DNA of 37,394 bases from an uncultured euryarchaeote (GTDB lineage: Archaea > Thermoplasmatota > Poseidoniia > Poseidoniales > Poseidoniaceae): assembly GCA_937897365.1 (NCBI GenBank), contig CALCOP010000094.1:1-37394 (forward strand), read 5' to 3'. Position 1 is the stretch's first letter. Each line of letters starts with the position of its first letter. Both the position numbers and the translations under genes were made by a program. Shown piece after piece: positions 12,910 to 35,851 of the stretch. The notes beneath the pieces were generated by a model, which made no database searches, was not told the DNA's origin, and worked only from the letters and a program-made list of their open reading frames with translations.

Positions 12910-15900
12910 TCATTTCCTTAAGGGGCGAGGGCCGAGTGTGTCACCTTCTCCAACACAGAGGCGAATATCTCCACGACAAAATGAGCACGATGGACAGGTA
13001 TTGTTGCTTCCTTCGCCTCCAATTGGTGGCTCACTGACTGTTTCGGGCGCAGCAGATAGCTGAGCCATCCATTCGAGATGTTGTGAAAACACTGCCTTTG
13101 CATCATCAAATTCTGTGCTCGTCATTTGAAGAATCCTTCCGGACGCCCCCATGAGTAGAGAGGGAGGGAGTATGGTTCGACGTTCAGATTCAGGTTTTTG
13201 TTGCTCCATTGATTCAAGTGCAAGTGAATACAAAGTAAGTTGGAGTTTATGTTGCTCAAGAATCGATCTCTCGGCTGGTGTTGAAGGAAAAGGACTGAGA
13301 ACATCGCCTTCATATTGTTGTAAAGGACTTCCCTCCATCGGGTTTTCAGGATTAAACGAATCACGGCAACCTTTGGTTTTCAAATCAACAACTTGCAAAA
13401 ATCCATGGCCCTCACTGTTGCGTAAGGCGAGAACAAGGTCGGCTCTACCATCAAATACAATATCGACATGGTCAACCTTTGAAAGCGCAACCGGCCCATT
13501 AACGGAAAATCCGGTTCGATAGAGTTCCTCAAATACAACTTTATTGACGTAATAAAAGGGCAACTCCGTTCTTAAACCTTCGACGACATAACCATGATAT
13601 TGTCCTCCATCGGCGTATTTGCCAAGTAACCCGTCACGAACTAATCGGCCCAATTCAGCTAACCTTTGCGCCGTTGCTTCAGCGATTTCCAAATCCGAAT
13701 TTTCAACCCCGATTCCCTCTTCAGCCATGACCCGGCGAATGGTTTCTCTATCATCGAGCATGTCTTTTCCTTCATACACCCATGCGGGAGGCAAAACAGA
13801 AACCGCTGGAGCATTTTTCGACGCTGGATTGGCAAGACCAATTTCAATCAAACGATGCATGAGCGTCCCAAATGTAGTAGCTTCTGGAAAAGATGACGGT
13901 GATTGGTGTTTCATATTTGGATTCGGTGAGAAGAAGTGCAGTGGCTCTGGATTCCATCCTTTGACTTCTGTGAGCCAATGTTGACGAGGAGAATTATAAC
14001 TTGAATCAAGGCTATGCGCAGGCATTCTCATGATTTGACTAACCTTCGGAAGGGGGGTCGGGGCCAATTTGGGTTGCGAAAGTGCATTCATACGCTGTTC
14101 AATTTCATACCAGTGTTGCAGAGGAGTGAGGGTTTGTAATGTTGGGAAACATTGTGGAGAATGATAAATGTGGATTCCTTCCAACGACGAAATACCGAGT
14201 TTTGAGGTATTCGATAATGAAAACGGGTCCAATGACAGAACTGTTTCCGAGTATGTTGCTAAAGGCGTTGCAAAGTCATCGCTTTCCAATAACCAAGGCG
14301 AGTCTTCGACCGAGTTTTGATGGGAAAGGCTTCGTAGACCATCGAGTAACATTCCTCCCATCGTCTTAAGTGAAGGGCGAACGTTGACATTCAATTTCTG
14401 AGTTTTTGTATCTATTTCTGCAGTCCGATTCGGAGACCCGACCAAAATAAGCCGATCTTTTACTCGAGTGAGGGCAACGTAAAATTCTCGACGGCGCTCT
14501 GCTTGACGTTGAGCGTGGTCAATCCTTTTCGCAAATTCCCAAAGCCCATCATCAGGGCGTTCTCGGGAATTCCAAGGATTAATTCGACCTGCTACAACTT
14601 GAGGGGTGACCAAAACATTGCTTTTTGCTGCGAGAGAAGAGTCTGACTTTCCTGCATGGAACAATCCAGCAACAACAACAACTGGGGCTTGGAGTCCTTT
14701 TGCCCCATGAATTGTCATGATTTGAACTGCACCCCCTGAAGGAGTGGCAATAGCGGATGGGCCTTTCGTTCCAAGACCATCGAGATCCTTGATTCGATTG
14801 TACAGAGCGGCCGGTTCATGTCCCAGCTCATTGCCTATATTGACCAACAATGCGCATAATGATTCTGCGTTTTGGCGAGATGTGTCATCAGGGTAAGCGA
14901 CAAGAAGATCTGAATGATCCAAGATGATGTCAAACACATCGTGAACGGCGCCACAGTGCGCTAAATGTTCCAGATGCAAAGCAAGTGTTCTTACAGATTC
15001 GGTTGGAGCAAAATGCTGTATTTTCTGCCACCAATTCCCTTCAATTTCTTGCGTCATCAAAGCATGACATTGAACATCACTGAATCCCATTATAGGCGAG
15101 CGTGCAAGCGTTAAAGCGGCGTGTCGAGATGTAGGATATGCAAGTAATTCGAGACATGAAAGAAGTGGCAAAACGACCGGTTGAGCAAGCAGTGCACCTT
15201 GGCGATCAGCCATTACGGGTACACCGCGTGACTGAAGTCGAGAAATGAGGTCTGGAATGTGTTTTCGCGAGTGAACAAGAACGAGAATGTCTTCCGGAAG
15301 AACCGTGGTGGCTTGCGGGGAGAGTTGGGTAAATGACCCCTGTTCAGCATTCCAAACCTGGGTTGGTTGTTGAGAGAGTAAAGCCTGGAGTCGAGATGCA
15401 ATTAATTCATTTTCTAAGTGAGTATTCGATGCCTTAGGAGAGGTGAAGGTGTCGAAATATTCGTCCAGCTCAAGACTCGGTTCCTGTGCATCGATTTGTA
15501 ACGGTAAAAGCCATTCTAAAACCCCCTGTTGTTGTGTTTCTCGAGCAGCGCGAAGATGCTGGTGTTCAGCATGCCAATCGCCCGGCAAAAGGTAGTGTCT
15601 CGGGGCAAAGACATCTTGGAACATACCGTTCATGGTATCCATGAGATTCGACAATGTTCGGTGATTAGATGTCAAATCGATGTGCCCCATTGCACGGCGA
15701 TTCTTGCGTTGCTCATCGATAAGATTGAATGCTTTTTCATCATCCTCGAATGCAAATTCAACATGTTCCCAAGGCTGTGAAGGAATCGTTGATTCCTGGA
15801 CTTCTGTCCCGACGATGAACGACCCACTCTCTCCGCCAGCGCCAACGGGGCGGGGGTCACGACCATGCCCATCTCGTCGCAGGTGATCCAGTCGAGGCTC

Positions 15901-17880
15901 GACCGATTCAATCTCATTAGCGGTTTTAATTGCTTCAACAGTACGGCGCATGACCGTTACTTCGGCTTGTCTAAAACGGTAGATACTCTGCTTCATATCG
16001 CCAACAATACAAACAGTAGGGTCCCAAGGTCCAAGCGGTCTTTCAGGGTCATCGGGCTTTAATCGCCGAGCCCCCCAGAGTCGAGCGAGAAGCCTGAAAT
16101 GTGCGGGGTTCGTATCTTGATACTCGTCAATAATGAACGCTCTGAATTGGCGGCGTATCGTCTGCAATACAGCATATCTTCGGTTTAAGTCCTCAAAGCA
16201 ACTTTGATCTTCACCGGCAAGCCTCATTGCGCGTGCAATATGTTGATCTAACCATGGCTCATCGCCAATACGGTCCAATGCTTGTACAACTTCATGTGGA
16301 TAAGAGTGACGGACAATGTCTGGACAGCGGGCGAGAAGTAAGTCTGCGGCTAAGCGCTGTATATCATCATAGTCATGGACGCCTTCTTGGGCTTTCATCA
16401 ATGCAAGTATATCTTGGCAGCCTCGGTGAACAAGAAGTAAATCATTGAGAACACTGGTTTGCAATTCACTGGAGATTCGAAGGTTGCCTTGAGGAGCGAT
16501 GTCGTCGAATACCGGTTCAATTGGTCTTGAACGAAGTTCGCAATCTTCAGGCATGTATGGCATATCGGATAAGGGGTCAAGTAAGAAAGAGCATTTTCCA
16601 AGTAAACGAACGAGGAGCCCTTGACGTGAATTCATGTGTTCACGTAGATTTCTTGCGAGAACTTCGGCGTGCTGATAAAGTTCATCTCGAATCCCTTTGG
16701 ACAATGTTTTCGCAGCTGTTTTACCACAAAGACCTGAGGGCCAACCATTGCAATGATTGGCTTGTGGAAGGACGCCTTTCGGGAAAAAATTAGGCTTGTC
16801 CTGTTTTTCTAACTGGTTCCAAGAAGACGCAGCCATGGCAATTTGCCAAACACGTTGAATACAAGTTGCAGGACTGTTTGGGACCGGCTCACGAGCAAGA
16901 TGAGTCAAATGATTAAACCGGGTTTGAGTCGGGTTCATTTCCGGTTCACAGGGCAGAACACAATCAGCCGAGTGGGTCAAAAAAAGGTCAACCCACTGAG
17001 AGAGCAAATCTTGCAAATGCTGCGTATATTGAATTGCAATATCTTTTACAGGTCCCACAAACATATCCAGCAAAACCTCGTGAGGCATAGGTCCTTGACC
17101 TGCCCAATCATAACCGTTTGATTCTGCACGAGCAACCATAGCATGGTGCGCTTCTTCAACGAAGAGAGACTTACCGAGCATTCCACTGAGCACAACTGCT
17201 GCTCGTTCTTGTCCACCGAGCAGTATTGCAAGACGATTCCGTGCAGAAATAAACGCTCCAACATTTCCTCTAACCCCCGCTTCAAGAGCATCGGAAATCG
17301 TACGAATTCGCCATGCAGATTGAAGTGTCTCTTGAGTAAGTAAAGGCGAGCGTTCCTCTGCAATTTGTTCACGACTTGGATGAACTGCAACAAGATCAAG
17401 ATGAGGCGATAGCAATTGTGAAAGGAAGGCGTCAATGGTTGAAATTGGCGCTTCATCGAGCGAAGAAAGAAGCATTTCCACATCTGCTTGGTCACGAACT
17501 CGTGGATCGTAAATACCATCCAAGTCATCATGGTGAAGGGGGCCGGCGCGAGTTTGTCCAACTCTCAAACGTATACGTGCTTTCAATTCTGATGCTGCTT
17601 TTTTAGTAAAAGTAATTGCAACGACTTCGCTGGGAAGGAGACCCATCCACTGTTTCTGTTCAGTTCGCTGGCGAGGCGGGGAACGAAGCGAGCCATGCCC
17701 ACTCAATGGTTCTCTCGGGCCTAAGGGGAGAAGATGGGTTGCTCGTTGCTCATGAGAGAGAAGATGCTGAACATAACGTTCAGCCATCACAGTCGTCTTT
17801 CCCGTTCCCGCTCCTGCATCAAGAGCGATGTGTTTATCGAGGTCCAAACCAAGGCGCTGGCTTCGATTGAATACAATCAT
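12910..17880 (-). CDS. addA: AddA/RecB-like UvrD-family (SF1A) helicase with a C-terminal PD-(D/E)xK nuclease domain and a terminal Cys cluster
   Basis: 1656 aa. Helicase motifs: I DAGAGTGKTT, Ia ITFTKKAASELKARI, II FIIDEYQDTN, III VGDMKQSIYRFRQA, IV TSNHRT, V MTIHGAKGLQAPVVVV, VI FYVALTRVKDRLILVG. Nuclease motifs: GTLMHRLIE, GRADLV, VVDLKT, QLTLYSLAL. The terminal cluster is CPSCSFCRGDIRLC. The ATG overlaps the addB-like stop (TAATG). Confidence 0.8.
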   Translation of the reverse strand: MIVFNRSQRLGLDLDKHIALDAGAGTGKTTVMAERYVQHLLSHEQRATHLLPLGPREPLSGHGSLRSPPRQRTEQKQWMGLLPSEVVAITFTKKAASELKARIRLRVGQTRAGPLHHDDLDGIYDPRVRDQADVEMLLSSLDEAPISTIDAFLSQLLSPHLDLVAVHPSREQIAEERSPLLTQETLQSAWRIRTISDALEAGVRGNVGAFISARNRLAILLGGQERAAVVLSGMLGKSLFVEEAHHAMVARAESNGYDWAGQGPMPHEVLLDMFVGPVKDIAIQYTQHLQDLLSQWVDLFLTHSADCVLPCEPEMNPTQTRFNHLTHLAREPVPNSPATCIQRVWQIAMAASSWNQLEKQDKPNFFPKGVLPQANHCNGWPSGLCGKTAAKTLSKGIRDELYQHAEVLARNLREHMNSRQGLLVRLLGKCSFLLDPLSDMPYMPEDCELRSRPIEPVFDDIAPQGNLRISSELQTSVLNDLLLVHRGCQDILALMKAQEGVHDYDDIQRLAADLLLARCPDIVRHSYPHEVVQALDRIGDEPWLDQHIARAMRLAGEDQSCFEDLNRRYAVLQTIRRQFRAFIIDEYQDTNPAHFRLLARLWGARRLKPDDPERPLGPWDPTVCIVGDMKQSIYRFRQAEVTVMRRTVEAIKTANEIESVEPRLDHLRRDGHGRDPRPVGAGGESGSFIVGTEVQESTIPSQPWEHVEFAFEDDEKAFNLIDEQRKNRRAMGHIDLTSNHRTLSNLMDTMNGMFQDVFAPRHYLLPGDWHAEHQHLRAARETQQQGVLEWLLPLQIDAQEPSLELDEYFDTFTSPKASNTHLENELIASRLQALLSQQPTQVWNAEQGSFTQLSPQATTVLPEDILVLVHSRKHIPDLISRLQSRGVPVMADRQGALLAQPVVLPLLSCLELLAYPTSRHAALTLARSPIMGFSDVQCHALMTQEIEGNWWQKIQHFAPTESVRTLALHLEHLAHCGAVHDVFDIILDHSDLLVAYPDDTSRQNAESLCALLVNIGNELGHEPAALYNRIKDLDGLGTKGPSAIATPSGGAVQIMTIHGAKGLQAPVVVVAGLFHAGKSDSSLAAKSNVLVTPQVVAGRINPWNSRERPDDGLWEFAKRIDHAQRQAERRREFYVALTRVKDRLILVGSPNRTAEIDTKTQKLNVNVRPSLKTMGGMLLDGLRSLSHQNSVEDSPWLLESDDFATPLATYSETVLSLDPFSLSNTSKLGISSLEGIHIYHSPQCFPTLQTLTPLQHWYEIEQRMNALSQPKLAPTPLPKVSQIMRMPAHSLDSSYNSPRQHWLTEVKGWNPEPLHFFSPNPNMKHQSPSSFPEATTFGTLMHRLIEIGLANPASKNAPAVSVLPPAWVYEGKDMLDDRETIRRVMAEEGIGVENSDLEIAEATAQRLAELGRLVRDGLLGKYADGGQYHGYVVEGLRTELPFYYVNKVVFEELYRTGFSVNGPVALSKVDHVDIVFDGRADLVLALRNSEGHGFLQVVDLKTKGCRDSFNPENPMEGSPLQQYEGDVLSPFPSTPAERSILEQHKLQLTLYSLALESMEQQKPESERRTILPPSLLMGASGRILQMTSTEFDDAKAVFSQHLEWMAQLSAAPETVSEPPIGGEGSNNTCPSCSFCRGDIRLCVGEGDTLGPRPLRK

Positions 17881-20800
17881 TACGAATTCCCTCCAAACAT
17901 GTCCGGGTATACGTGACGAATTGAGTTGTATGAATAATGACGACCGGGCGTGGCATTAACAAGACCGTTTCGTGCTGTATCAATAGCTCGACTTGAAGTG
18001 CGTAGACGTTCGGCTATCAGTGCTCTGAATCCATTCTGTACAGATGAAGTCGAATTTGGGAAGCGGTAGAGTTGTTGTGAAGAGGATGTTCGTTCACCCA
18101 AATCAGAGTTTTCAAGATAATGCGCTACTGATTCGTCTATTTCGAGATAGTGTTCGGTGGATTCTCCGATTTCAGTGACACCAATTCCGACCACCCTGTC
18201 GCCGGGGTGATGCAGTTCCCATGCTCGAGCATACAAAGCAAGTTGCACTTCATCAAATAATCCTCGGCGATGCCGATTACCTCTATCTCCAGATTTTGGC
18301 CCATTTATGGTCTTGAGGTCGCGAATGACAACCAATCGATTGGCTGGCGGTAATGGGTTGTCGGATAACGACATAGGGTCACTCACACTACTTGCTGATA
18401 GAACACCATCAGCAATGGCCTGAGCCAACATTTCGGGCTCAAGAACGACTTCGTCAACACGATCAATTCGACCTCGAATCTTGAAAGGTGATGGCTCCCC
18501 CTCATCATTGCAAGCGTCCAAAACAACCGGTTGATTACCATCTAAACCGATACCAAACTCACAGGCAATGGGCGCTGCGTGAGTGAGTGAAAAATCCGCC
18601 ATTAGCATTCGACCAACACGCCCACCGATAGAAATTTCAACTTCACCTTCCAAGTAACTTCGCCATACATCCGGAGTCACCCCCAACATCTCTCGGCATC
18701 GATGAACCGCAACTGCATCGTTACGAGTGAGCCAAGGTACCTCGTCTTCTAAATATTGTAAAATCGAAAGCCAAAGTTGGTCGATTGAACCTGAAAGGAG
18801 AGGAGAGGGGGAAGAGACAGGCGCACTCGCAGTAGGGACGCCATGTGCTCGAAGAAGAGCTGCCTCTGAATCGTGTAATATCGTTCCACGCGTCCGGTTG
18901 TCGAGATCTTCTGATTGCGAGTCTTGAGGTTGAACTTTGAGATGATTTTTCATCCATGATAATCGAGGGCATTCAAGCCAAGACTGTATACGACTTGGCG
19001 ACCATACATCGACTTCGATTGGTGAGGAAAAGCCCATGACTGAATTGAGGATTTCACTCTGCGTATCATATGCTGGAAGCGGTCGTGGGTCAATAGCAGG
19101 TCCCGTACTCCTCGAACCCTTCATGCCAAGATGGGGCCATTCACCGTGCTCGTTGCTACCCAACGACACTTGACCTTTCTTAGGACGGAGAACGAGCCCA
19201 TCAGTACTGACCAGATTCTTTCGCAAGCTCCAAGGCAAATACTCATTTTTCCCCAGATTCTTGTGTGTGGGTTGACGGTGTACACGGTCTATTTGGAGTG
19301 GAACTTCATGTGCCATCGCAACACCGTTCATGGAAAGTACACTTCCTGAGACTTGACTTCCATCTTTGAGAGCTAACCCTAGACGTTGCCTCTCATCACG
19401 TCCACGATGACCAGCACGCTCTCCAAAGATTGCCCCATTTTTTGCAGTCATTGTGAATGGGCGCGGAGTGAGCCAAGCGCCACCGAATTGGTCCGATGTC
19501 CAATGCCAACTTCGATGAGGATTGCCCGATTGATGGGCGGCCTCGGGGATAAAATTTGGTGCTGCTTGTAAGGAAATAATCTCTCCGGTTTGACGTAATT
19601 CGGTGAACCACTCAGCTAAAGGTGCGCTGGGCCCACCTCCTTCTTCCATGCTGGTGTCGAATATGATAACGGTCGATGCGGCATTCAACAAATGTCGCAG
19701 ATGGTGGCGTCCCTTACGTATTGTCAAGTCAGAGTGAAGCATGCCTAAGCGCAGTTTGGCGGGAGCGTCGAGCCAAGGTACGTTTGATGACTTCATAGGC
19801 CATGAACCAACATCTAATCCAACAAGGAGAATTAAATCAGCCTCAACCCCTTGTGCTTGTTCCGGTGAGAGAATTTGTATTTGCTTTCCTTTACTTCGAG
19901 AACGTGGAACCTTCGTTAATTGCAGTAAATGGTCGAAATAACTGAAGAAATCCTGGCCTCTTGAAGGAGGTTCTAGGCCAACTTTCTCGAGGATTTTAAC
20001 GGTTAATTTATGTGATTCGCGTAGATGTTGCAAACCTGCAATAGAGCGGTCGAAACCTGCAGTACGGTTTGATAGGGAGCTCCAATCGAGTTGCGAGAGC
20101 ACCCTATCAAGCCAATGAAAGCCGTCCTTGGGACGCGGAGGAAGGGGGAGTTTTTCGCCTGATGAGCAACCGAACAATTCGGATTCCAATACTTCTTGAG
20201 TGGGTGTCTCAAGAAGAGGATACCACATTTCTGCAATACACCGCAACCACCACTGAGTCTCTTCAAGCTCTCGAAGAGACCGTTCTCGATTTCCACCAAG
20301 CTGAGGGGTTGCCTGAGAAAGCGTAGCAAGCCACCTGCGTAGTGCACCTTGTCCGCCACGAACATGGAAAGAACGGGCGATGTTTTCAAGAACATGTATG
20401 TGTGGCTGAGGGCGCCAGTTTTCTTCGCTGGGATGCAAAATCTCATCTACTCCTCCATTGGGCAACGGAATGCTTTGATGCTCGAATAATGATCTTAACT
20501 TCTCAATAGACCAAGCCTCAAGGCCATCTCCAATCCTCATAATTTGAGCAAGTCCAGCGAGTGCAGGTATCTCAGTAAGAAGTTGCTGCTCTGTTCCGGT
20601 AAGGTATCCCAAAGACTGGAGTCTTGAAGACCACACCTTTCGATTACTGTCTGCTGAACCATCGATAATGAGGACTTCTCCATTTGAAGACTGACTGTAA
20701 GCGTGGAGTATCTCGAATGCAGCGTCAATACAATGATTTCGACGGCGAACATTGACTCTGTGATACGTTGTTCCTCGTTCAATTGAACGAGACGAACGCC

Positions 20801-21611
20801 ATGAATTAGGATTGCTGGATTGCCACACAGTATGTTGAGGAACCCAAGACGGGAGCGTGTCTTGTGTCACATAGTCCCAGTCTCCATCGAGCAAATATGA
20901 ACCGTGGTGACCGAGTCGGAACGACCCAGGCACACATAACTGGTGCACAGGTCGTTGTTGAGCAATGCATTGAAGGAAAGTCCGTTCTACTTCAGTAAAA
21001 TCAGGTGCAGAATCGAGAACGAATATTCCTTCTACATCATGAAGAGTAAAAGGCAGGTGTTCTGCTTTACCAATCTGTTGTATGAGTGATTGCAAAGCAT
21101 GGTGTGGGTGAGTGCCACCGAGTTGTTCTCCAACTTTTTTCAGAATGAAATCAAACTGTTGAGCACCAGGGTCTTCATCCCAGACCCAAGGTTCATTCAG
21201 TTCAGTCAGTGAACGATGGAGAGACAAGAGCCTCTCTGTCTGATAAGCGGTCCATTGTCGCTGTGCTTGTGGGGCAAACAGTAACGGCAATTCACCGGAC
21301 TCTGCAGCGCTCTTCGTGCGATTGTGAATCGAGAGAAAGAGCCCTGTACTGTTCGAAAGAAGTGGTGGGAGGCCGAGATCAAGAATCATAAGAGGAATGA
21401 GACGTTGTAAGGTAAGGTGGTGCGTTGTGTCAACGGGGACATTTAATTGAGCAAGGCGGTGAAGTATCTGGCTTCTACTGCCTTCATTTGGATAAAGAAA
21501 AAGATGATTGTCGCAGTCACCACTGCACAATGCGTCGAATAACCAAGCAGGGATATTGTCTCCTGAAGCAACCGCTTCAATCGAAATATCTCCACCTTCA
21601 TGGCCAGTCAT
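17880..21611 (-). CDS. addB: AddB/RexB-like helicase-nuclease subunit (degenerate helicase-like N-terminus without a Walker A motif, C-terminal PD-(D/E)xK nuclease)
   Basis: 1243 aa. No GxGKT is visible. AddB-like segment QILSPEQAQGVEADLILLVGLDVGSWP. Nuclease domain: WLECPRLSW, GTILHDSEAALL, GRIDRVD, VIRDLKT, QLALYARAW. It is translationally coupled to the addA-like gene, in the addB-then-addA order seen in Firmicutes. Confidence 0.7.
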   Translation of the reverse strand: MTGHEGGDISIEAVASGDNIPAWLFDALCSGDCDNHLFLYPNEGSRSQILHRLAQLNVPVDTTHHLTLQRLIPLMILDLGLPPLLSNSTGLFLSIHNRTKSAAESGELPLLFAPQAQRQWTAYQTERLLSLHRSLTELNEPWVWDEDPGAQQFDFILKKVGEQLGGTHPHHALQSLIQQIGKAEHLPFTLHDVEGIFVLDSAPDFTEVERTFLQCIAQQRPVHQLCVPGSFRLGHHGSYLLDGDWDYVTQDTLPSWVPQHTVWQSSNPNSWRSSRSIERGTTYHRVNVRRRNHCIDAAFEILHAYSQSSNGEVLIIDGSADSNRKVWSSRLQSLGYLTGTEQQLLTEIPALAGLAQIMRIGDGLEAWSIEKLRSLFEHQSIPLPNGGVDEILHPSEENWRPQPHIHVLENIARSFHVRGGQGALRRWLATLSQATPQLGGNRERSLRELEETQWWLRCIAEMWYPLLETPTQEVLESELFGCSSGEKLPLPPRPKDGFHWLDRVLSQLDWSSLSNRTAGFDRSIAGLQHLRESHKLTVKILEKVGLEPPSRGQDFFSYFDHLLQLTKVPRSRSKGKQIQILSPEQAQGVEADLILLVGLDVGSWPMKSSNVPWLDAPAKLRLGMLHSDLTIRKGRHHLRHLLNAASTVIIFDTSMEEGGGPSAPLAEWFTELRQTGEIISLQAAPNFIPEAAHQSGNPHRSWHWTSDQFGGAWLTPRPFTMTAKNGAIFGERAGHRGRDERQRLGLALKDGSQVSGSVLSMNGVAMAHEVPLQIDRVHRQPTHKNLGKNEYLPWSLRKNLVSTDGLVLRPKKGQVSLGSNEHGEWPHLGMKGSRSTGPAIDPRPLPAYDTQSEILNSVMGFSSPIEVDVWSPSRIQSWLECPRLSWMKNHLKVQPQDSQSEDLDNRTRGTILHDSEAALLRAHGVPTASAPVSSPSPLLSGSIDQLWLSILQYLEDEVPWLTRNDAVAVHRCREMLGVTPDVWRSYLEGEVEISIGGRVGRMLMADFSLTHAAPIACEFGIGLDGNQPVVLDACNDEGEPSPFKIRGRIDRVDEVVLEPEMLAQAIADGVLSASSVSDPMSLSDNPLPPANRLVVIRDLKTINGPKSGDRGNRHRRGLFDEVQLALYARAWELHHPGDRVVGIGVTEIGESTEHYLEIDESVAHYLENSDLGERTSSSQQLYRFPNSTSSVQNGFRALIAERLRTSSRAIDTARNGLVNATPGRHYSYNSIRHVYPDMFGGNS

Positions 21612-21740
21612 TTGCGTCGCCTCAACCTCACCACAATAGTCGACTGTTCTTGAAGGCTCTCGGCATATTTCCTGGAAAAAGGAATGTACTTTTTACGGAA
21701 AGTCGGTTTTTGGGCGATTTTGTGAAGTTTTCTTGCTTTC

Positions 21741-21748
21741 TTTATATA
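21741..21748 (+). promoter_or_regulatory. Candidate TATA box (TTTATATA) in the 354-nt divergent intergenic region
   Basis: This is the only strong TATA-like element between the addB-like start (21611) and the TFB-like start (21966). It lies about 218 nt upstream of the TFB-like ATG and about 35 nt upstream of a 23-codon small ORF (21783..21854). Confidence 0.35.
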
Positions 21749-21965
21749 CTGTGGAAGTGAATAGTAGTCGTGGTTCCCAAACATGAAGCATTCTTGTTCC
21801 GTGAAAAATACTCATGATGACCGAAAGTTTCAAATATTGGGCCTTACCATATAGATACGTTGGGCGGCAAAAACCGGCTGTAATGTTCATTTCGCCTCTG
21901 GCGGACGGTCCATAACACCGGCGGAAACCGCTCACGAATCCACAACAAGAAGGGAGTTTATTAAG

Positions 21966-23177
21966 ATGAAAGATAACAAGACAGGAAAAAAGCAAGAACT
22001 GACACAATGCGACGAGTGCTGCAGCAAAGAGCTGAAGAACGTACCCGAAAAGGGCGAAGTATGGTGTCTCGACTGCGGCCTTGTACACAAGAGTCAAGAA
22101 ATCGATGCGAACGACAACGGAGCCATCCTCTTTGGAGAGAATGCGCATTATCAGGCAATCCGAAACGATGCTGACCGTAATCGCATGATGGGTAATACTG
22201 GACCGAAGATGAAGTTCGGCTCTGCTGGCGTCAAAGACCGTCGCAAGTACTACTTGCTCGAGAAGATTGACCGCAGTTCTGTCCGCAACCCTCACCCTTT
22301 CGCCCGCAGAGTCAAAACGGTGATAGAAACATTGTATGGTCGTCATGCATTGCATATTCTGGAATACTTGGTTGAGATGTCTTGCAAACCATTATCTGCA
22401 GAGCAAGAGGCAATCCGTAAGAAGCAGGGCAAGTCAATGTACACACGCCTTGGTATGCCAAAGCAATCCATCTGCCGCAAGAAGAAAGGCATCAAAGGAA
22501 GTTCTGATGAACAAAACGCTGTCATCATTGCGGCTGCAATTGTTGAACTTGGCGGTGAAATTGGAATCATGCCTAAGTTTGACCGTCGTGCTACCATGGA
22601 ACAAAACGGTATCGTTCCGAAGCAAATCATGAATGCACGAATACGTATCCTGTCCCACTGGAAGGCACGCGTATCAATGGGTTGGGCTGCAATGCCCCCA
22701 CGAAAGAATGCGGACGATCGTCGCGAAGACGCCATTGTTCAAGCAATGGAACACATTTTTGACATGCTTGGAGACTACCTTGATGTCGCTGATTTTGAGC
22801 AGGTACTGTACGAAACTGAGGCACGACTGGCATTACTTCAGGAAGGAACAGGTGAAGCACTATCGATTAACATCGAAGAGCGTATGCTGGTATCGGTTGC
22901 CGTATATGCAAGCCTCACATCATTCGGCCTCCAGTCTGGAGCTGCTGACCTGCTCGCTGATGTCTTTGGCCTTACCAGCAGTGGCATACGTTCACGCTTT
23001 GACGCACTCGTGAAAGAATCTGAATCGGGAAAGTTCATCGATAACGGTGCCTTTGACATGACCGTTACTTGCGCTGAACAAATCAATGAGTCGCAGAAGC
23101 AGAATGCCTTGATAGCCAAGTTCCGCTTGGCCAGAGTATGCGCGAAGCAAAACTCCTCATCGCAATCCTCATCCTAA
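21966..23177 (+). CDS. Divergent TFB/TFIIB-family transcription factor paralog (zinc ribbon plus two cyclin-like repeats, non-canonical B-reader/linker)
   Basis: 403 aa. The N-terminal Zn ribbon CDECCSKELKNVPEKGEVWCLDCGLVHKSQEID (22008..22079) matches the TFIIB ribbon pattern CPxC...GExVCxxCGxV...ID. Two cyclin-repeat-like ends: AVIIAAAIVELGG...GIVPKQIMNARIRIL and LVSVAVYASLTSFG...GLTSSGIRSRFDAL. AGGGAG lies upstream of the ATG. Confidence 0.7.
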   Translation: MKDNKTGKKQELTQCDECCSKELKNVPEKGEVWCLDCGLVHKSQEIDANDNGAILFGENAHYQAIRNDADRNRMMGNTGPKMKFGSAGVKDRRKYYLLEKIDRSSVRNPHPFARRVKTVIETLYGRHALHILEYLVEMSCKPLSAEQEAIRKKQGKSMYTRLGMPKQSICRKKKGIKGSSDEQNAVIIAAAIVELGGEIGIMPKFDRRATMEQNGIVPKQIMNARIRILSHWKARVSMGWAAMPPRKNADDRREDAIVQAMEHIFDMLGDYLDVADFEQVLYETEARLALLQEGTGEALSINIEERMLVSVAVYASLTSFGLQSGAADLLADVFGLTSSGIRSRFDALVKESESGKFIDNGAFDMTVTCAEQINESQKQNALIAKFRLARVCAKQNSSSQSSS

Positions 23178-24096: not shown

Positions 24097-26481
24097 TTAC
24101 GGGAAGAAACCGTTTCGGCCATCTCGTGGGTTCTGGTCTCGCAGGTCTTGTTCAAGTTCCCAGCGGAATTCAAAAGGCGCTGCAACCATCGGCGCTTCAA
24201 GTATTTCGGCATAATGCCACCACCATGGAGGTGCCCCTCGTGCACCAAGGTCTTGTTGAGTCCTGTTAAGCAAGAGGGTGAGGTCTCTACGCGCATTGTT
24301 ACGTGGATAGTCGCGCCGGACGAACTGGATGATGTTTTCATGCTGACTGTGTTCGACATATCCCAATAGCAATGAAAATCTTCGAATCATTCTGCGCTCC
24401 TGTGCGGTTCGAATAGTCACTGCGAGATGGCAGTGTTCAAAGGTTAGATTGCCACCATCGAATACAGCCATTCTGAATGTGGCTCCAATTGGGTGATGCA
24501 TGAGCGCCTCCCAAATCCGAGGGAAAACCTCGCAGTATCTTCGCTCACCGTTGCGTATGTCGCCAATCGGAAACTCGTTTTGATCTCGCCCGGGGTTACG
24601 AATAAACATCCACTCATTTCTTCCGCGCACCTCATTATACAAATTGTGAATATTTGGTTCCCGGTTATCTGACAGCATTTCATCAAAGGATTTGTGCCAG
24701 AGTTCGATAAATTGCGGATGAGGTAAAGCAGCATCCGCAGCTAAAGCGTGTTCAACCAACATCTCAGTACGATACGTGCGGGTCGCTCTGTTATTGTCTG
24801 CACCTTGCTGCCACATTCGCCGGTTTTGAGCATGGTTTCTGCGGAAAAGATGCATCATGTTTCGGCGCATCATGAACTCTCCCTGGTTATTCACGTCTCG
24901 TGTTCTGCTTTGTGGCAACCAGCGTATGTGTTCAAATTCTCTGGAATGGCTCTCACGGACGATTCGTTCAAGCAGCTGCACATCGTTTTGGTTGAGGAAA
25001 CGAAGATGTTTTTCGGTCGCTCTGGGTGGGAACCCTAATGGAGAATTTTGAGAGACATGGTGGCGAAGGCTGTCTATTTGCGCCGATGTGTTGATGTCGT
25101 CAAGTAACGACAGGATGACTGAAACGAGGGTATCTCCAAGTGGAACGGTCGAGTGAAAGTTTCCATCGTGAATACAAATGGGATGGGTAATTCGTGATTC
25201 AAGGGAATCGATAGATTCTATGATAAATGGGGCATTGTGAGCACCTCTACCGATTCGGACATCGTAGAAATGCCCTAAACGGCCAATGACGAGAATGTGT
25301 TCATCATGAACGAATACACGGTCTGGATTGCTATCGATAACCTCTCGCAAAAATTGTATTGAACGTCGCAATGGTGCGGATATCTGGACTTGGTTTATCT
25401 CATGACAGGACCAGTTACACTGCAGAGCATAGAGAAGTTCACCTGCGTTTGAAGTGAGAGGGGACAGAGCACTTGCAAGTAAGAAGGCCCAAATCCCTGG
25501 ATCTTCGGGGACAGAAGTTTTTCGTGTTGCATTGTTCTTTGAACGGACTAGAATTTTGAGTTTGTCGCCAACGATGACGAACGGCCACATCTGTTCAGAA
25601 TTGTTCTGCGTAGTTGCCAAATAAGAATACCACCGTTCAAGCCATGGAAATCCATTCAATCTTTCAAGCCCAGATGGATGTTCTTTGAAAGCATCACTGA
25701 GAAATTCCTCAAATTTATCTCGAGAAACCTTCCCTAAACGGTCGCGCACATCCCGAGCCCAAACCCCTATTGGATTAAGAGAATAGTTTTCTGGAGGTGT
25801 AAGATGTTCCTCTGCCATCCATTGAATCCAAGTAAAAAGTGCCGATGCTCCGGGTTTCTGAAGAGAGGGACGGAAATTGCGGCGGCGAAAATGCCTCGGA
25901 GCTCTCGCACGATCGACAAGAGCGATATTCTTGGTATTCAGACAACCAAAGGCTACGAAGAGTTTTGACAAATCCCACCCCATGCGCGCTGACTTTGATG
26001 CAAGAATATTGAGCATAGATACGAGTGGAATTGCAGCAGGCATGGTTCTTCCATTGACAAGGATGTCTTTGCCGACAAAAGAAATTTGCACGCCATCATG
26101 CAACAGGAACCCACTCACAAGGTGGAGGCGTTGTAAGGTTGTAAGGCGAACACCGTCAGATATTCGCTTACTGATAATCTTCAGTTCTGCAACAGAACAA
26201 GGCGAAGATAGTACGGGGTCGATTGTTTCATCATCCAATTTCGCCCATTCAACATCAGGCATTGCAGACGTATTTGTTTTGAGGTTACGCCAGCGTTGCT
26301 GGGATGTTTGATGCGCACCACCGAGAAGTTCTCGTGCGCGTTGATGTGCTGAATTTGGGACATTATATGCCCATTTTTTCTTTTTGTTATTCACAGTAAT
26401 TGAGGAACAGAGCCGACAAGGACTTTCCGTTGCTTGATGCTCACAAATCTCACAAACTGTTGATTGAGAGCGTCTCGCCAT
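24097..26481 (-). CDS. Large orphan protein, Arg/His/Asn/Trp-rich, with an N-terminal CxxC...CxxC zinc ribbon. Function unknown.
   Basis: The long uninterrupted ORF has a start at the ATG at 26481 (MARRSQSTVCEICEHQATESPCRLCS), giving 794 aa. A TATA box lies about 24 nt upstream. The longer ORF start at 26616 would overlap ltaE. I recognise no catalytic motif. One internal segment, GHFYDVRIGRGAH...ICIHDG...PLGDTLVSVILSLLDD, is discussed in the findings. Confidence 0.6.
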   Translation of the reverse strand: MARRSQSTVCEICEHQATESPCRLCSSITVNNKKKKWAYNVPNSAHQRARELLGGAHQTSQQRWRNLKTNTSAMPDVEWAKLDDETIDPVLSSPCSVAELKIISKRISDGVRLTTLQRLHLVSGFLLHDGVQISFVGKDILVNGRTMPAAIPLVSMLNILASKSARMGWDLSKLFVAFGCLNTKNIALVDRARAPRHFRRRNFRPSLQKPGASALFTWIQWMAEEHLTPPENYSLNPIGVWARDVRDRLGKVSRDKFEEFLSDAFKEHPSGLERLNGFPWLERWYSYLATTQNNSEQMWPFVIVGDKLKILVRSKNNATRKTSVPEDPGIWAFLLASALSPLTSNAGELLYALQCNWSCHEINQVQISAPLRRSIQFLREVIDSNPDRVFVHDEHILVIGRLGHFYDVRIGRGAHNAPFIIESIDSLESRITHPICIHDGNFHSTVPLGDTLVSVILSLLDDINTSAQIDSLRHHVSQNSPLGFPPRATEKHLRFLNQNDVQLLERIVRESHSREFEHIRWLPQSRTRDVNNQGEFMMRRNMMHLFRRNHAQNRRMWQQGADNNRATRTYRTEMLVEHALAADAALPHPQFIELWHKSFDEMLSDNREPNIHNLYNEVRGRNEWMFIRNPGRDQNEFPIGDIRNGERRYCEVFPRIWEALMHHPIGATFRMAVFDGGNLTFEHCHLAVTIRTAQERRMIRRFSLLLGYVEHSQHENIIQFVRRDYPRNNARRDLTLLLNRTQQDLGARGAPPWWWHYAEILEAPMVAAPFEFRWELEQDLRDQNPRDGRNGFFP

Positions 26482-26499
26482 AGCGTGAATCGTCTGCGA

Positions 26500-26511
26500 G
26501 AATATATAACT
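26500..26511 (-). promoter_or_regulatory. TATA box (minus strand GTTATATATTC) for the orphan 794-aa gene, probably giving a leaderless mRNA
   Basis: The plus strand reads aatatataac at 26501..26510, just downstream of the ltaE stop (26513). It is centred about 24 nt upstream of the ATG at 26481. Confidence 0.55.
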
Positions 26512-26512
26512 C

Positions 26513-27553
26513 TCACAAAGTTGCAAATGTTTCGATAATTCGCTGAATGTCCTCATCTGTGATGTGCAAATGAACCACGATTCTGCATGCGTGAGGTTGG
26601 ATATCCATGACATCAATGCCAGAACTTTGTAATTTTTTCATAACCTGAGTTGCAGGTATTTCGGATTGGAAATAAACCATGTTGGTTTCGACTGTGTCCA
26701 TATCGACATCGAATCCATCAATTTCCTGAATCGCCTCAGCGAGCTTCTTTGTTCGACGATGGTCGTCTTCAAGCCGTTGAATATTGTTGTCAAGAGCATA
26801 CAAACAAGCAGCTGCTAATATTCCAGATTGCCTCATACCACCGCCAAACATCTTTCTCCAACGATGTGCACGAGCGATGAAAGTTGAAGAGCCAACCAAG
26901 ACTGAACCTACTGGAGCACCAAGCCCTTTTGAAAAACAAATCGAAACCGAATCATAGTCTCGAACCATACGATCGACTGGTGTTTTGGTCGCAATAGCGG
27001 CATTAAAAATTCGGGCGCCATCCATATGGGTTGCACAATCATTGGCTTTGGCAAGTGCTGCAATTTGGTCCAGTGTCTCTTGAGAGTAACACGCACCACC
27101 ACCGCGATTTGACGTGTTTTCGACGCAAACAAGTGAACCATCGGGGTAATGGGATAGTGAACCTGCCTGCTTTCGTATAGCATTCTCTACATCTTCAACT
27201 CGCATCAAACCTCCATGCACGTCAACTAAGGCAATTGAAGCACCGCACAGGGCAGCATAACCTCCGCCTTCATAGAGATAAATATGGCTGTTTTTGGCAG
27301 TGATAATCTCATCGCCAGGCGAGGTGTGCGCTCGTAGTGCAATCGCATTTGACATGGTCCCGGAGGGGACAAAAAGACCGGCTTCTTTCCCACACATTTC
27401 TGCGAGTCGCTGCTCAAGAAGTGTGACTGTTGGGTCATCACCGAGAACATCATCACCAACCGCAGCCAAATTCATTGCTGCTCGCATTTCAGGAGTAGGT
27501 TGAGTGACGGTGTCTGAACGCAAATCAACACGGTCCGATGAGTAGTCTCGCAT
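26513..27553 (-). CDS. ltaE: Low-specificity L-threonine aldolase (PLP-dependent, fold type I)
   Basis: 346 aa. N-terminal DLRSDTVTQPTPEMR, GDDVLGDDPT, SGTMSNAIALRAH, MDGARIFNA, and the PLP-lysine context SICFSKGLGAPVGS. Confidence 0.85.
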   Translation of the reverse strand: MRDYSSDRVDLRSDTVTQPTPEMRAAMNLAAVGDDVLGDDPTVTLLEQRLAEMCGKEAGLFVPSGTMSNAIALRAHTSPGDEIITAKNSHIYLYEGGGYAALCGASIALVDVHGGLMRVEDVENAIRKQAGSLSHYPDGSLVCVENTSNRGGGACYSQETLDQIAALAKANDCATHMDGARIFNAAIATKTPVDRMVRDYDSVSICFSKGLGAPVGSVLVGSSTFIARAHRWRKMFGGGMRQSGILAAACLYALDNNIQRLEDDHRRTKKLAEAIQEIDGFDVDMDTVETNMVYFQSEIPATQVMKKLQSSGIDVMDIQPHACRIVVHLHITDEDIQRIIETFATL

Positions 27554-27596: not shown

Positions 27597-28013
27597 TTAG
27601 AGCAACTTCAAATGGCCTGTGACCTGTTCAAGGAGAGGTTCTGTATCGGGTCCGAGCGCCAGTACCGTAAGAGAGCCGGCGGGTATTTGCGTATGTCCGG
27701 CATCACGAACGAGTGTCGTGGAAATTCCTGCTGCTTTCGCTTGCTTTTCGAGTTCTAAAAGATGATCTGCATCAAGAGCTTTGAGACAGACTTTCTTCTG
27801 ACCAGTAGCAAGCCATTGCTCAAGGTACAATGGCTTTTCAGCACCTGCTTGCATTGTTGCCATGACAGCACCATGACCTACTTGTGCAGCAATTTTACCC
27901 TTGCCCATTTTCAATTGGTGGTTGACGATACAGACCATTTTACAAGGTGCATCAGGGAAATTACCCGAGACAGTTGGCGCAGTAATTCTATGAAGAAATG
28001 AACGGAATCCCAT
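27597..28013 (-). CDS. pth2: Peptidyl-tRNA hydrolase, archaeal/eukaryotic Pth2 type (paralog 1)
   Basis: 138 aa. LKMGKGKIAAQVGHGAV, KKVCLKA and VRDAGHTQIPAGSLTVLALGP. The ATG at 28013 has AGGTG 6 nt upstream. A shorter 113-aa form starting at the ATG at 27938 is possible. Confidence 0.85.
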   Translation of the reverse strand: MGFRSFLHRITAPTVSGNFPDAPCKMVCIVNHQLKMGKGKIAAQVGHGAVMATMQAGAEKPLYLEQWLATGQKKVCLKALDADHLLELEKQAKAAGISTTLVRDAGHTQIPAGSLTVLALGPDTEPLLEQVTGHLKLL

Positions 28014-35831: not shown

Positions 35832-35851
35832 ATTCTTTGACTCGCTATGAG

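What the first reader, a model, noticed from the sequence alone, without database searches (positions are those of the whole stretch)
12910..21611. Bacterial-type AddB-AddA helicase-nuclease operon inside an archaeal gene neighbourhood
Seen in the sequence: two very large, translationally coupled minus-strand genes share a TAATG stop/start overlap at 17878-17882. The downstream one has all SF1A UvrD motifs, including the AddA/RecB-typical DEYQD and GDxKQSIYRFR, plus a RecB-type nuclease (GTLMHRLIE, VVDLKT, QLTLY). The upstream one has no P-loop but carries an AddB-like degenerate helicase body and a second RecB-type nuclease (GTILHD, IRDLKT, QLALY). Established knowledge: AddAB/RecBCD-class end-processing machines are bacterial, and archaea normally resect DNA ends with Mre11-Rad50 plus HerA-NurA. 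The surrounding genes here (mcm, gatE, pth2, TFB-like) are archaeal. Inference: this is either an acquired bacterial double-strand-break or anti-foreign-DNA machine working in an archaeon, or a diverged lineage-specific derivative. The AddA-like subunit is about 400 aa longer than typical AddA, with about 440 aa between motif Ib and motif II.
Basis: partly seen in the sequence, partly recalled or inferred. Interest (0 to 1): 0.7.

Follow-up and report, generated by a model that had tools for sequence, protein, structure and literature searches.

The report
Archaeal AddAB-like DNA-end helicase-nuclease pair
Two overlapping giant genes in this Marine Group II (Poseidoniales) archaeal genome encode a very diverged version of the bacterial AddAB DNA-break-processing machine, and the pair is an old, order-wide core feature of these abundant ocean archaea, not a recent import or an assembly error.

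Summary
Two minus-strand ORFs, B (17880-21611, 1243 aa) and A (12910-17880, 1656 aa), overlap in TAATG and carry every quoted motif.

A has intact SF1A helicase motifs and a RecB-type nuclease. Its best profile and fold matches are AddA. B has no P-loop. Its predicted fold matches B. subtilis AddB over its full length, and its nuclease catalytic residues are invariant across the family.

The window is from a Marine Group II (Poseidoniales) archaeon. It is neither a mis-assembly nor a recent transfer:
- 370 GTDB species genomes encode a B relative, and A follows B in 76 of 79 loci examined.
- The flanking genes are syntenic across the order.
- A and B identities co-vary (r = 0.985) and dN/dS is 0.04-0.08.

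Both proteins score far below the curated AddA/AddB cut-offs. Distinctive features are expanded helicase domains in A, a four-cysteine pattern in both nuclease domains, and loss of those cysteines in the window's own subclade.

Haloarchaeal megaplasmids also carry AddAB-like pairs, so "AddAB is bacterial only" is too strong.

I found no paper describing either archaeal pair.

Verdict: a new, deeply diverged archaeal variant of a known machine. Function is inferred, not shown.

The parts
17880..21611 (-). Gene B: AddB-like subunit, 1243 aa (inactivated UvrD-like body plus C-terminal RecB/Cas4-type nuclease)
   Evidence: ORF. PDDEXK_1 3e-10. addB_alphas 1.1e-9, 37 bits. AF2 model pLDDT 85. Foldseek top five hits are B. 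subtilis AddB chains: E 2e-18, TM 0.54/0.56, about 1300 aligned columns.
12910..17880 (-). Gene A: AddA-like subunit, 1656 aa (active SF1A helicase plus C-terminal RecB-type nuclease)
   Evidence: ORF. UvrD-helicase, UvrD_C and PDDEXK_1. addA_Gpos 159 bits, recB 138, addA_alphas 117. PDB 3u44_A at 3e-16. Foldseek of residues 1-1200: AddA 4cej_A at 3e-29, TM 0.53/0.54.
17878..17882 (-). TAATG stop/start overlap that couples B to A
   Evidence: Sequence. A follows B directly in 76 of 79 related loci. Called genes overlap by 4 nt in L080 and L081.
21474..21497 (-). B residues 39-46, LYPNEGSR: the place where AddB of Firmicutes has its Walker A. No P-loop anywhere in the family.
   Evidence: P41, E43 and R46 are invariant in 16 homologs. 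A bona fide alpha-type AddB (P0187) has VLVPTRRGARAL here.
19686..20000 (-). B residues 538-642: degenerate helicase 2A-core segment, the stretch with detectable sequence similarity to bacterial AddB
   Evidence: addB_alphas match at B 546-664. hhalign against alpha-type AddB gives 91% probability, B 538-642 to AddB 555-659.
17883..19034 (-). B nuclease domain (residues about 860-1243): C881 in WLECPR, H913, GRIDRVD (1047-1053), IRDLKT (1096-1101), QLALY (1123-1127)
   Evidence: These residues are invariant in 16 and in 50 homologs. Pfam PDDEXK_1 covers 870-1054.
17904..17939 (-). B residues 1225-1236, HYSYNSIRHVYP: the site where other family members have C-x2-C-x5-C (iron-sulfur ligands). 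All three cysteines are lost here.
   Evidence: Alignment. Locus table: lost only in the window, L001, L002, L003, L005 and L029.
17794..17814 (-). A Walker A, GAGTGKT (residues 23-29)
   Evidence: Invariant in 13 and in 45 homologs.
16156..17412 (-). A residues 157-575: enlarged, mostly helical stretch between motif Ib and motif II (about 430 aa; by position it corresponds to domain 1B)
   Evidence: Motif positions. The AF2 model shows mostly helices, with 10-residue block pLDDT mostly 70-95.
15964..16128 (-). A motif II, DEYQDTNP (585-592), through motif III, GDMKQSIYRFRQA (627-639)
   Evidence: Invariant in homologs. Coordinates.
14437..14718 (-). A motifs V-VI: MTIHGAKGLQ (1055-1064) and RRREFYVALTRVKDRLILVG (1129-1148)
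   Evidence: UvrD_C match at 1050-1146. Conservation.
12913..14013 (-). A nuclease domain (residues about 1290-1656): FGTLMHRLIE, GRADL (D1481), VVDLKT (D1499, K1501), QLTLYS (Q1547, Y1551)
   Evidence: PDDEXK_1 at 1328-1634. Catalytic residues invariant.
13975..13998 (-). A residues 1295-1302, YNSPRQHW: other family members have a Cys at 1297 (LDxSxxCxRxxW). The window has Ser.
   Evidence: C1297 nearly invariant. (lost in the window, L002, L005 and L029).
12955..12996 (-). A C-terminal cysteine cluster, CPSCSFCRGDIRLC (1629-1642). The family pattern is C-x2-C-x9-C. The window has an extra Cys at 1635.

Best explanation
B and A encode the two subunits of an AddAB-type helicase-nuclease: one motor and two nucleases.

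Inferred mechanism, by analogy with B. subtilis AddAB:
1. The heterodimer binds a double-stranded DNA end.
2. The SF1A motor of A moves 3'->5' on one strand and unwinds the duplex.
3. The nuclease of A cuts the 3'-ended strand. The nuclease of B cuts the 5'-ended strand, which passes through B's dead helicase-like body.
4. The product is resected DNA with a 3' single-stranded tail. In an archaeon this would be handed to RadA for recombinational repair. The same activity would also destroy linear foreign DNA.

The pair was fixed in or before the common ancestor of Poseidoniales (both Poseidoniaceae and Thalassarchaeaceae carry it) and has been inherited vertically as a core gene pair.

Shown here: the domain architecture, intact catalytic motifs, fold matches, operon structure, lineage-wide conservation and purifying selection.

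Inferred: complex formation, strand polarity, end resection, the hand-off to RadA, and an ultimately bacterial origin.
For: Architecture and motifs.

Profiles: A scores best on addA_Gpos, then recB, then addA_alphas. B hits only addB_alphas.

Folds:
- B model (pLDDT 85) matches AddB chains first: E 2e-18, TM 0.54/0.56 over about 1300 columns. This is ahead of AdnA (TM 0.39/0.48) and RecC (0.41/0.43).
- A model (pLDDT 81.5) matches AddA first (3e-29, TM 0.53/0.54), ahead of RecB (7e-22, TM 0.44).

The only hit outside the family in the B homolog search is a bona fide alpha-type AddB, scoring 930 bits on TIGR02786. hhalign gives 91% probability for the match.

Operon and inheritance:
- TAATG overlap.
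- A follows B in 76 of 79 loci.
- A and B identities correlate at r = 0.985 over 67 loci.
- Relatives are found in 370 GTDB species genomes, and flanking synteny is conserved.
- dN/dS is 0.04-0.08.

The AddAB mechanism used for the analogy comes from PMC3321194.
Against: Both proteins are far below the curated equivalog cut-offs: 159 bits against 708 for A, and 37 bits against 486 for B.

B lacks the Walker A that helps stabilise the Chi complex in B. subtilis AddB.

The window's B lacks three of the four iron-sulfur ligands. That cluster is reported as essential for DNA-end binding in B. subtilis AddAB.

Sequence-only searches of B against PDB chains find nothing for the single sequence, and only a Cas4 at E = 0.11 for the profile.

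There is no biochemical, genetic or expression evidence. Complex formation was not modelled. Whether the genome also has HerA, NurA, Mre11 and Rad50 could not be checked.
Confidence: 0.78

Rival explanations
1. The same machine acts mainly as innate defence, as RecBCD does. Its main job would be to degrade linear viral or plasmid DNA that enters the cell, not to repair chromosomal breaks.
For: This is a known second role of RecBCD/AddAB-class enzymes (established knowledge; phage inhibitors bound to RecBCD appear among the fold hits 8b1r, 8b1t and 5mbv). A shows weak similarity to GajB-type UvrD helicases in PADLOC.
Against: - The PADLOC hits are generic UvrD-core matches of at most 59 bits, and B has none.
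- The pair sits at a fixed, syntenic, housekeeping-like position in every genome. It is not in a variable island.
- It is universal in the order and under strong purifying selection, unlike typical patchy defence genes.
- The two roles are not mutually exclusive.
Confidence: 0.2
2. A and B are two independent enzymes that are only co-transcribed. A would be a stand-alone UvrD-Cas4-type helicase-nuclease fusion, and B a separate nuclease.
For: UvrD-Cas4-like fusions that act alone are described in bacteria and mesophilic archaea (PMC5704561). Complex formation was not tested here.
Against: - B matches AddB, the partner subunit, over its full length, not just its nuclease domain.
- B and A are adjacent, in the same order, in every locus that extends far enough.
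- Start and stop codons overlap.
- Their divergence is tightly correlated.
- An 860-aa dead helicase body with many invariant residues has no obvious role without a motor partner.
Confidence: 0.1
3. It is an AdnAB-like machine with two motors and two nucleases.
For: AdnA chains are the second-best fold matches of B, at 1.7e-15.
Against: AdnA keeps Walker A and B motifs (PMC3321194). B has no P-loop in any of the 50 homologs aligned. TM scores to AdnA (0.39/0.48) are lower than to AddB (0.54/0.56).
Confidence: 0.03
4. The 8.7-kb block is a bacterial fragment mis-assembled or mis-binned into an archaeal contig, or a very recent horizontal transfer.
For: The family type is best known from bacteria. 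One related locus (L040) is labelled Verrucomicrobiales.
Against: - G+C is uniform across the junctions.
- The same pair, with the same flanking genes, occurs in tens of independent assemblies. These include the CM001443.1 MG-II chromosome (L037) and a 3.0-Mb contig.
- L040 itself carries a homolog of an MGII flanking gene, so it is probably a mis-binned archaeal contig.
- All 150 hits listed from the search of 1.84 billion representatives are family members or fragments.
Confidence: 0.01

Closest known systems
Bacillus subtilis AddAB (Firmicutes type; PDB 3U44, 3U4Q, 4CEH, 4CEI, 4CEJ)
   Same: - Gene order addB then addA.
- One active SF1A motor plus a RecB nuclease in A.
- A dead UvrD-like body plus an active RecB-family nuclease in B.
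- Best fold match for both subunits.
- In most family members B has a first Cys about 330 residues upstream of a C-x2-C-x5-C, as in AddB.
   Different: - Only about 11% (B) and 16% (A) identity in the fold alignments.
- B has no Walker A.
- A is about 420 aa longer than the 1232-aa AddA chain 3u44_A, and has a 430-aa stretch between motifs Ib and II.
- A has its own four-cysteine pattern, which a haloarchaeal AddA-like protein lacks. Its absence from B. subtilis AddA is from my own knowledge.
- The window's B has lost three cysteines.
- The host uses RadA, not RecA (established knowledge).
Alphaproteobacterial-type AddAB (TIGR02784 / TIGR02786; genetics in Rhizobium etli, from my own knowledge)
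   Same: - addB_alphas is the only curated model that B hits.
- An alpha-type AddB (P0187) is the only protein outside the family found by the B homolog search.
- Like B, it has no Walker A: an 'hhhPxxxxR' N-terminus.
- Like the window's B, it has no C-terminal cysteine cluster.
   Different: - The match is only 37 bits against a cut-off of 486, and covers about 120 residues.
- Most MGII B proteins keep the cysteine cluster.
- A scores higher on addA_Gpos than on addA_alphas.
AddAB-like pairs on haloarchaeal megaplasmids (e.g. Salinirubellus salinus NZ_CP104004.1, Haloferax lucentense pSVX82-3). Uncharacterised, generically annotated.
   Same: - Archaeal host.
- A PD-(D/E)XK nuclease gene (about 1100 aa) directly followed by a UvrD-helicase gene (about 1250 aa).
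- The B-like protein has no Walker A and has C...C-x2-C-x5-C.
- These plasmids give the best plasmid-database matches of A.
   Different: - Plasmid-borne and apparently accessory, not chromosomal and core.
- Much closer to bacterial AddA: 328-341 bits on addA_Gpos, against 159 for the window's A.
- Normal AddA length, with no cysteine cluster in the A-like protein.
- Only 27% identity to A over its helicase core.
- The B-like protein is barely alignable to MGII B: hhalign probability 35%.
RecBCD (E. coli)
   Same: - RecB is the second-best fold and profile match of A.
- RecC is a weaker full-length fold match of B, TM 0.41/0.43.
- Same overall task.
   Different: - No RecD-like third gene in the operon.
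- B keeps an intact nuclease site, whereas RecC's is dead (established knowledge).
- The pair therefore has one motor, not two.
HerA-NurA with Mre11-Rad50 (the archaeal end-resection system)
   Same: The same presumed cellular task in archaea (PMC3326311).
   Different: Unrelated proteins and architecture: a hexameric HerA translocase with a NurA dimer. Whether Poseidoniales also have them was not testable here.

Membership tests
AddAB helicase-nuclease | Two adjacent, co-oriented genes, addB upstream of addA, apparently co-translated | tested here: met
   TAATG overlap. B-to-A order in 76 of 79 loci. 4-nt overlaps in L080 and L081.
AddAB helicase-nuclease | AddA: complete SF1A (UvrD/PcrA-like) helicase motifs | tested here: met
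   GAGTGKT, DEYQDTNP, GDMKQSIYRFRQA and motifs V/VI are invariant in 45 homologs. Pfam UvrD-helicase 2.7e-32. The fold matches AddA first.
AddAB helicase-nuclease | AddA: C-terminal RecB-family nuclease with catalytic H...D...D-x-K...Q-x3-Y | tested here: met
   H1342, D1481, D1499, K1501, Q1547 and Y1551 are invariant. PDDEXK_1 match.
AddAB helicase-nuclease | AddB: UvrD-like four-subdomain fold with degenerate helicase motifs | tested here: met
   Foldseek top five hits are AddB chains: E 2e-18, TM 0.54/0.56, about 1300 columns. No helicase Pfam hit.
AddAB helicase-nuclease | AddB: active C-terminal RecB-family nuclease | tested here: met
   H913, D1050/D1053, D1098, K1100, Q1123 and Y1127 are invariant in 50 homologs.
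AddAB helicase-nuclease (Firmicutes type) | AddB N-terminal Walker A nucleotide-binding site | tested here: not met
   LYPNEGSR replaces it. No P-loop in any homolog. Alpha-type AddB also lacks it, so this does not exclude the wider AddAB class.
AddAB helicase-nuclease | AddB 4Fe-4S cluster ligands: one Cys, then about 300 residues, then C-x2-C-x5-C. Present in 'many' AddAB complexes (PMC3321194). | tested here: not met
   The window's B keeps C881 but has HYSYNSIRHVYP in place of the three C-terminal cysteines. All loci outside the window's subclade keep the full pattern. Cluster binding itself was not tested.
AddAB helicase-nuclease | Score above the curated equivalog cut-offs (TIGR02785/02784 for AddA; TIGR02773/02786 for AddB) | tested here: not met
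   A: 159 bits against 708, and 117 against 861. B: 37 bits against 486, with no addB_Gpos hit.
AddAB helicase-nuclease | ATP-dependent unwinding and dual-strand degradation from dsDNA ends, modulated by a Chi sequence | not testable with these tools
   Needs biochemistry. No Chi candidate could be derived from the data in hand.
RecBCD | Third subunit RecD (SF1B motor) and a RecC with an inactive nuclease-like domain | tested here: not met
   No RecD-like gene in the window. B has an intact nuclease site. A recD elsewhere in the genome cannot be excluded.
AdnAB | Both subunits carry ATPase motifs (Walker A and B) | tested here: not met
   B has neither. The fold match to AdnA is weaker than to AddB.
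Stand-alone UvrD-Cas4 fusion (PMC5704561) | A single helicase-nuclease polypeptide found alone or in non-conserved contexts | tested here: not met
   A is paired with B in a fixed context in every locus that extends far enough.

The most novel reading that the evidence does not exclude
Poseidoniales, the most abundant planktonic archaea of the surface ocean, may use this bacterial-type one-motor, two-nuclease AddAB derivative as their main DNA-end resection machine. It would feed an archaeal RadA recombinase, in place of or alongside HerA-NurA. It might also read its own Chi-like sequence through the highly conserved dead-helicase body of B. Ancestrally both nuclease domains would carry an iron-sulfur cluster, and one open-ocean subclade, which includes this window, is discarding these cysteines in both subunits while staying under strong purifying selection.
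Probability: 0.3. Interest if true: 0.75.

Novelty: new variant of a known kind. Interest (0 to 1): 0.55.

Why it matters
Textbook accounts assign RecBCD, AddAB and AdnAB to bacteria and HerA-NurA with Mre11-Rad50 to archaea (PMC3326311). HerA-NurA are described for thermophilic archaea, which leaves open how mesophilic archaea resect DNA ends.

An order-wide, syntenic and strongly constrained AddAB-like pair in Marine Group II gives a concrete, testable candidate. It raises several questions:
- How does a bacterial-type resection machine hand DNA to RadA?
- Does a Chi-like regulatory sequence exist in an archaeon?
- What do iron-sulfur clusters contribute to these nucleases? Natural cysteine-less variants are available within one clade for comparison.

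It would also improve annotation. Hundreds of MAG proteins now carry only generic names: 'PD-(D/E)XK nuclease family protein', 'UvrD-helicase domain-containing protein' or 'hypothetical'.

Tried and rejected
- **Sequence searches of B against PDB.** The single-sequence search found nothing. The 16-sequence profile found only a Cas4 at E = 0.11. Only the fold comparison showed the AddB relationship.
- **hhalign of the B profile against a haloarchaeal B-like protein.** Probability was 35%, too weak to claim a common archaeal clade.
- **tblastn of B against plasmids.** No match.
- **PADLOC.** Only generic UvrD/GajB core hits for A and nothing for B, so I did not file the pair as a known defence system.
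- **Search of 1.84 billion representatives with a B profile.** All 150 listed hits are family members or fragments. The nearest bacterial relatives lie beyond the listed range, so the donor lineage could not be identified.
- **The A homolog search.** It lists only its best 120 hits, all about 1650-aa relatives at 46-100% identity, so it gave no outgroup either.
- **Literature.** Nine full-text searches and targeted reading of Marine Group II genome papers found no mention of AddAB, RecB or UvrD in Poseidoniales or haloarchaea.
- **Mis-assembly or recent transfer.** Rejected on composition, synteny and distribution.
- **A suspected MCM interruption at the window edge.** Rejected: the reading frame is open to the window end.

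Full report
**1. The observation**

The ORF scan lists two large minus-strand ORFs. I call the upstream one B (17880-21611, 1243 aa) and the downstream one A (12910-17880, 1656 aa).

On the minus strand the junction reads ...TCG TAATG ATT... The stop of B and the start of A therefore share TAATG at 17878-17882.

- In A: GAGTGKT, DEYQDTNP, GDMKQSIYRFRQA, FGTLMHRLIE, VVDLKT and QLTLYS.
- In B: GTILHD, IRDLKT and QLALY. B has no P-loop.

About 430 residues separate motif Ib from motif II in A. G+C is flat at 0.44-0.49 across the block and both junctions.

The neighbours are archaeal: two PTH2 genes, GatE, MCM, a TFB-like zinc-ribbon protein and a YGR210-type GTPase.

**2. What the two proteins are**

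*Profile evidence.* Pfam assigns UvrD-helicase, UvrD_C and PDDEXK_1 to A, and only PDDEXK_1 to B.
- Against NCBIfam, A scores best on addA_Gpos (159 bits), then recB (138) and addA_alphas (117).
- B hits a single model, addB_alphas (37 bits, residues 546-664).
- All scores are far below the curated cut-offs (708, 696, 861 and 486 bits). These are therefore not ordinary members of the curated families.

*Sequence against solved structures.* A finds B. subtilis AddA first (3u44_A, 3e-16). B finds nothing, even as a 16-sequence profile.

*Fold evidence.* This settles B.
- An AlphaFold2 model of B residues 44-1243, built on 50 homologs (pLDDT 85.2), matches the five B. subtilis AddB chains first. 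The values are E = 2e-18, TM 0.54/0.56, over about 1300 aligned columns.
- AdnA follows at TM 0.39/0.48, then UvrD-type helicases. RecC is weaker on E-value (2.6e-6) with TM 0.41/0.43.
- A model of A residues 1-1200 (pLDDT 81.5) matches AddA first (4cej_A, 3e-29, TM 0.53/0.54). RecB follows at 7e-22 and TM 0.44, then UvrD/PcrA and AdnB.

*Nearest outside relative of B.* The only protein outside the family that the B homolog search returned, P0187, is a bona fide alpha-type AddB. It scores 930 bits on TIGR02786. hhalign aligns B 538-642 to its residues 555-659 with 91% probability.

*Catalytic sites.* Both nuclease sites are intact and invariant across the family.
- B: H913, D1050/D1053, D1098, K1100, Q1123 and Y1127.
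- A: H1342, D1481, D1499, K1501, Q1547 and Y1551.
- All SF1A motifs of A are invariant.

The architecture is therefore that of AddAB: one motor and two nucleases. It is not RecBCD, because there is no RecD-like gene in the operon and B's nuclease is intact. It is not AdnAB, because B has no ATPase motifs.

**3. Where it occurs**

*Host lineage.* The full-length homologs of A (46-100% identity, all about 1650 aa) that carry a source name come from Poseidoniales or Poseidoniaceae MAGs. Those of B are mostly unnamed or 'hypothetical'. Cluster look-ups add the names Poseidoniaceae, Thalassarchaeaceae and Thermoplasmatota.

*Distribution.* A scan of one genome per GTDB species found B relatives in 370 genomes.
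- The best 80 are essentially all Marine Group II. They include the CM001443.1 MG-II chromosome.
- The one locus labelled Verrucomicrobiales (L040) carries a homolog of an MGII flanking gene. It is probably mis-binned.

*Operon and synteny.*
- A follows B directly on the same strand in 76 of 79 loci. The other three loci end at B.
- The flanking genes are conserved too: the TFB-like gene in 54 loci, the methyltransferase and the alpha/beta-hydrolase in 69 each, and phosphatidylserine decarboxylase in 65.
- The most distant full-length family members found among 1.84 billion representatives keep the pair, with PTH2 upstream and PSD downstream. Two of them (L080, L081/L082) also show MCM and GatE further upstream. 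One lies on a 3.0-Mb contig.

*Constraint.*
- A and B identities to the window co-vary across 67 loci (r = 0.985). B evolves faster, by 9 identity points on average.
- dN/dS is 0.04-0.08 for both genes.

Together these results exclude mis-assembly and recent transfer. The pair is an old, vertically inherited core feature of the order. An ultimately bacterial origin is plausible, because early bacterial transfers into the core genome of this lineage are documented (PMC4122925). It was not demonstrated here. No donor could be identified, because all 150 listed hits in the representative search belong to the family itself.

**4. How it differs from known AddAB**

(a) *No Walker A in B.* B has LYPNEGSR, with P41, E43 and R46 invariant, where Firmicutes AddB has its nucleotide-binding site. 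Alpha-type AddB lacks the Walker A as well.

(b) *Cysteines in B.* Most B proteins carry the AddB-type ligand pattern. C881 is followed about 330 residues later by C-x2-C-x5-C, which matches the spacing described for B. subtilis AddB.

(c) *Cysteines in A.* Unusually, A carries an analogous pattern: C1297 and then C-x2-C-x9-C at the C-terminus, in nearly all loci. A haloarchaeal AddA-like protein has no such cluster. That these cysteines bind a cluster is inference from position only.

(d) *Cysteine loss in the window's subclade.* This is the group with at least 71% identity in B.
- B has lost all three C-terminal cysteines (HYSYNSIRHVYP) in the window, L001, L002, L003, L005 and L029.
- A has lost C1297 in the window, L002, L005 and L029. 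In the last three it has lost most of the C-terminal cysteines as well.
- The window's A keeps three and has gained a fourth, C1635.
- These variants remain under strong purifying selection: L005 against L029 gives dS 0.20 with omega 0.07 (B) and 0.06 (A).
- The cluster is reported as essential for DNA-end binding in B. subtilis AddAB, so the loss is notable. Alpha-type AddB shows that cluster-free AddB proteins exist.

(e) *Size of A.* A is about 420 aa longer than the 1232-aa AddA chain 3u44_A.
- It has an enlarged, mostly helical stretch between motifs Ib and II (residues 157-575).
- Residues of A between motifs III and IV have no counterpart in the alignment to the haloarchaeal AddA-like protein.

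**5. AddAB-like pairs in other archaea**

The best plasmid-database matches of A are haloarchaeal megaplasmids. There, a 'PD-(D/E)XK nuclease family protein' of about 1100 aa is directly followed by a 'UvrD-helicase domain-containing protein' of about 1250 aa.
- The A-like proteins score 328-341 bits on addA_Gpos. The B-like proteins score 45-55 bits on addB_alphas.
- The B-like protein has no Walker A and has a C...C-x2-C-x5-C pattern.

The premise that AddAB-class machines are confined to bacteria is therefore too strong. The haloarchaeal pairs are plasmid-borne, much closer to bacterial AddA, and only distantly related to the Marine Group II pair. I cannot say whether they share an archaeal ancestor.

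**6. Mechanism**

By analogy with B. subtilis AddAB (PMC3321194), I infer the following.
1. A and B form a heterodimer that binds dsDNA ends.
2. A's motor translocates 3'->5' and unwinds the duplex.
3. A's nuclease cuts the 3' strand. B's nuclease cuts the 5' strand, which threads through B's inactive helicase body.
4. The product is a 3' tail, used by RadA for recombination.

Degradation of linear foreign DNA would be a by-product or a second role. The many invariant residues in B's dead-helicase body are compatible with a sequence-scanning (Chi-like) function, but nothing here tests that. PADLOC gives no specific defence assignment.

**7. Novelty and limits**

Nine full-text searches and targeted reading of Marine Group II genome papers found no mention of this pair. 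They also found no mention of AddAB-like systems in archaea generally. Reviews assign AddAB, RecBCD and AdnAB to bacteria and HerA-NurA to archaea. Public annotation is generic.

I rate it a new, deeply diverged variant of a known kind of machine.

Not tested:
- complex formation and biochemical activity;
- iron-sulfur cluster binding;
- the presence of HerA, NurA, Mre11 and Rad50 in the same genomes;
- the donor lineage;
- any Chi-like sequence.

Noticed in passing
window 17904-17939 (B) and 13975-13998 / 12955-12996 (A); loci L001, L002, L003, L005, L029: The putative iron-sulfur cysteine ligands of both subunits are being lost within one Poseidoniaceae subclade that includes the window. The genes stay under strong purifying selection (dN/dS about 0.07). 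An iron-sparing adaptation is one possible reason, but this is untested.
   Followed up: partly
L084 2538-9607 (Salinirubellus salinus plasmid NZ_CP104004.1); L085 2277-9322 (Haloferax lucentense pSVX82-3): Haloarchaeal megaplasmids carry AddB-like and AddA-like gene pairs annotated only as 'PD-(D/E)XK nuclease family protein' and 'UvrD-helicase domain-containing protein'. At least eight haloarchaeal genera appear among the plasmid hits. They sit next to large helicase-related or DEAD-box helicase genes.
   Followed up: partly
L040 (NZEQ01000040.1, labelled Verrucomicrobiales bacterium ARS100): This contig carries the B gene (41% identity to the window's B) and a homolog of the Marine Group II flanking 839-aa ORF. 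It is probably an archaeal contig mis-binned into a bacterial MAG.
   Followed up: partly
window 27597-28013 and 28022-28390 (minus strand): Two tandem PTH2 (archaeal peptidyl-tRNA hydrolase) paralogs of 138 and 122 aa, both with full-length Pfam matches. The same duplication is seen in L083, whereas L080 and L081 show one copy.
   Followed up: no
window 24097-26616 (839 aa, minus) and 32871-36155 (about 1000 aa, minus): Two large ORFs with no Pfam match. The first has homologs in 50 of the 79 related loci. A similar unannotated protein of about 1000 aa lies between gatE and a DUF4430 gene in L081 and L082. Function unknown.
   Followed up: no
window 5896-7863 (minus strand): A 655-aa protein whose only recognisable feature is a C-terminal EF-hand pair (residues 579-638), an uncommon calcium-binding module in archaea.
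   Followed up: no
window 21693-22355 (minus) versus 21966-23177 (plus): Two ORFs overlap just upstream of B. The plus-strand TFB-like ORF (403 aa, weak TFIIB zinc-ribbon hit) is conserved in 54 loci. The minus-strand 220-aa ORF matches in only 14 loci and is probably not a gene. B is therefore divergently arranged with a TFB-like gene.
   Followed up: partly
window 1139-4164 (plus strand): A class-IV aminotransferase gene is followed by a fused chorismate-binding plus glutamine-amidotransferase gene (744 aa). This looks like a PabC / PabB-PabA-type arrangement.
   Followed up: no
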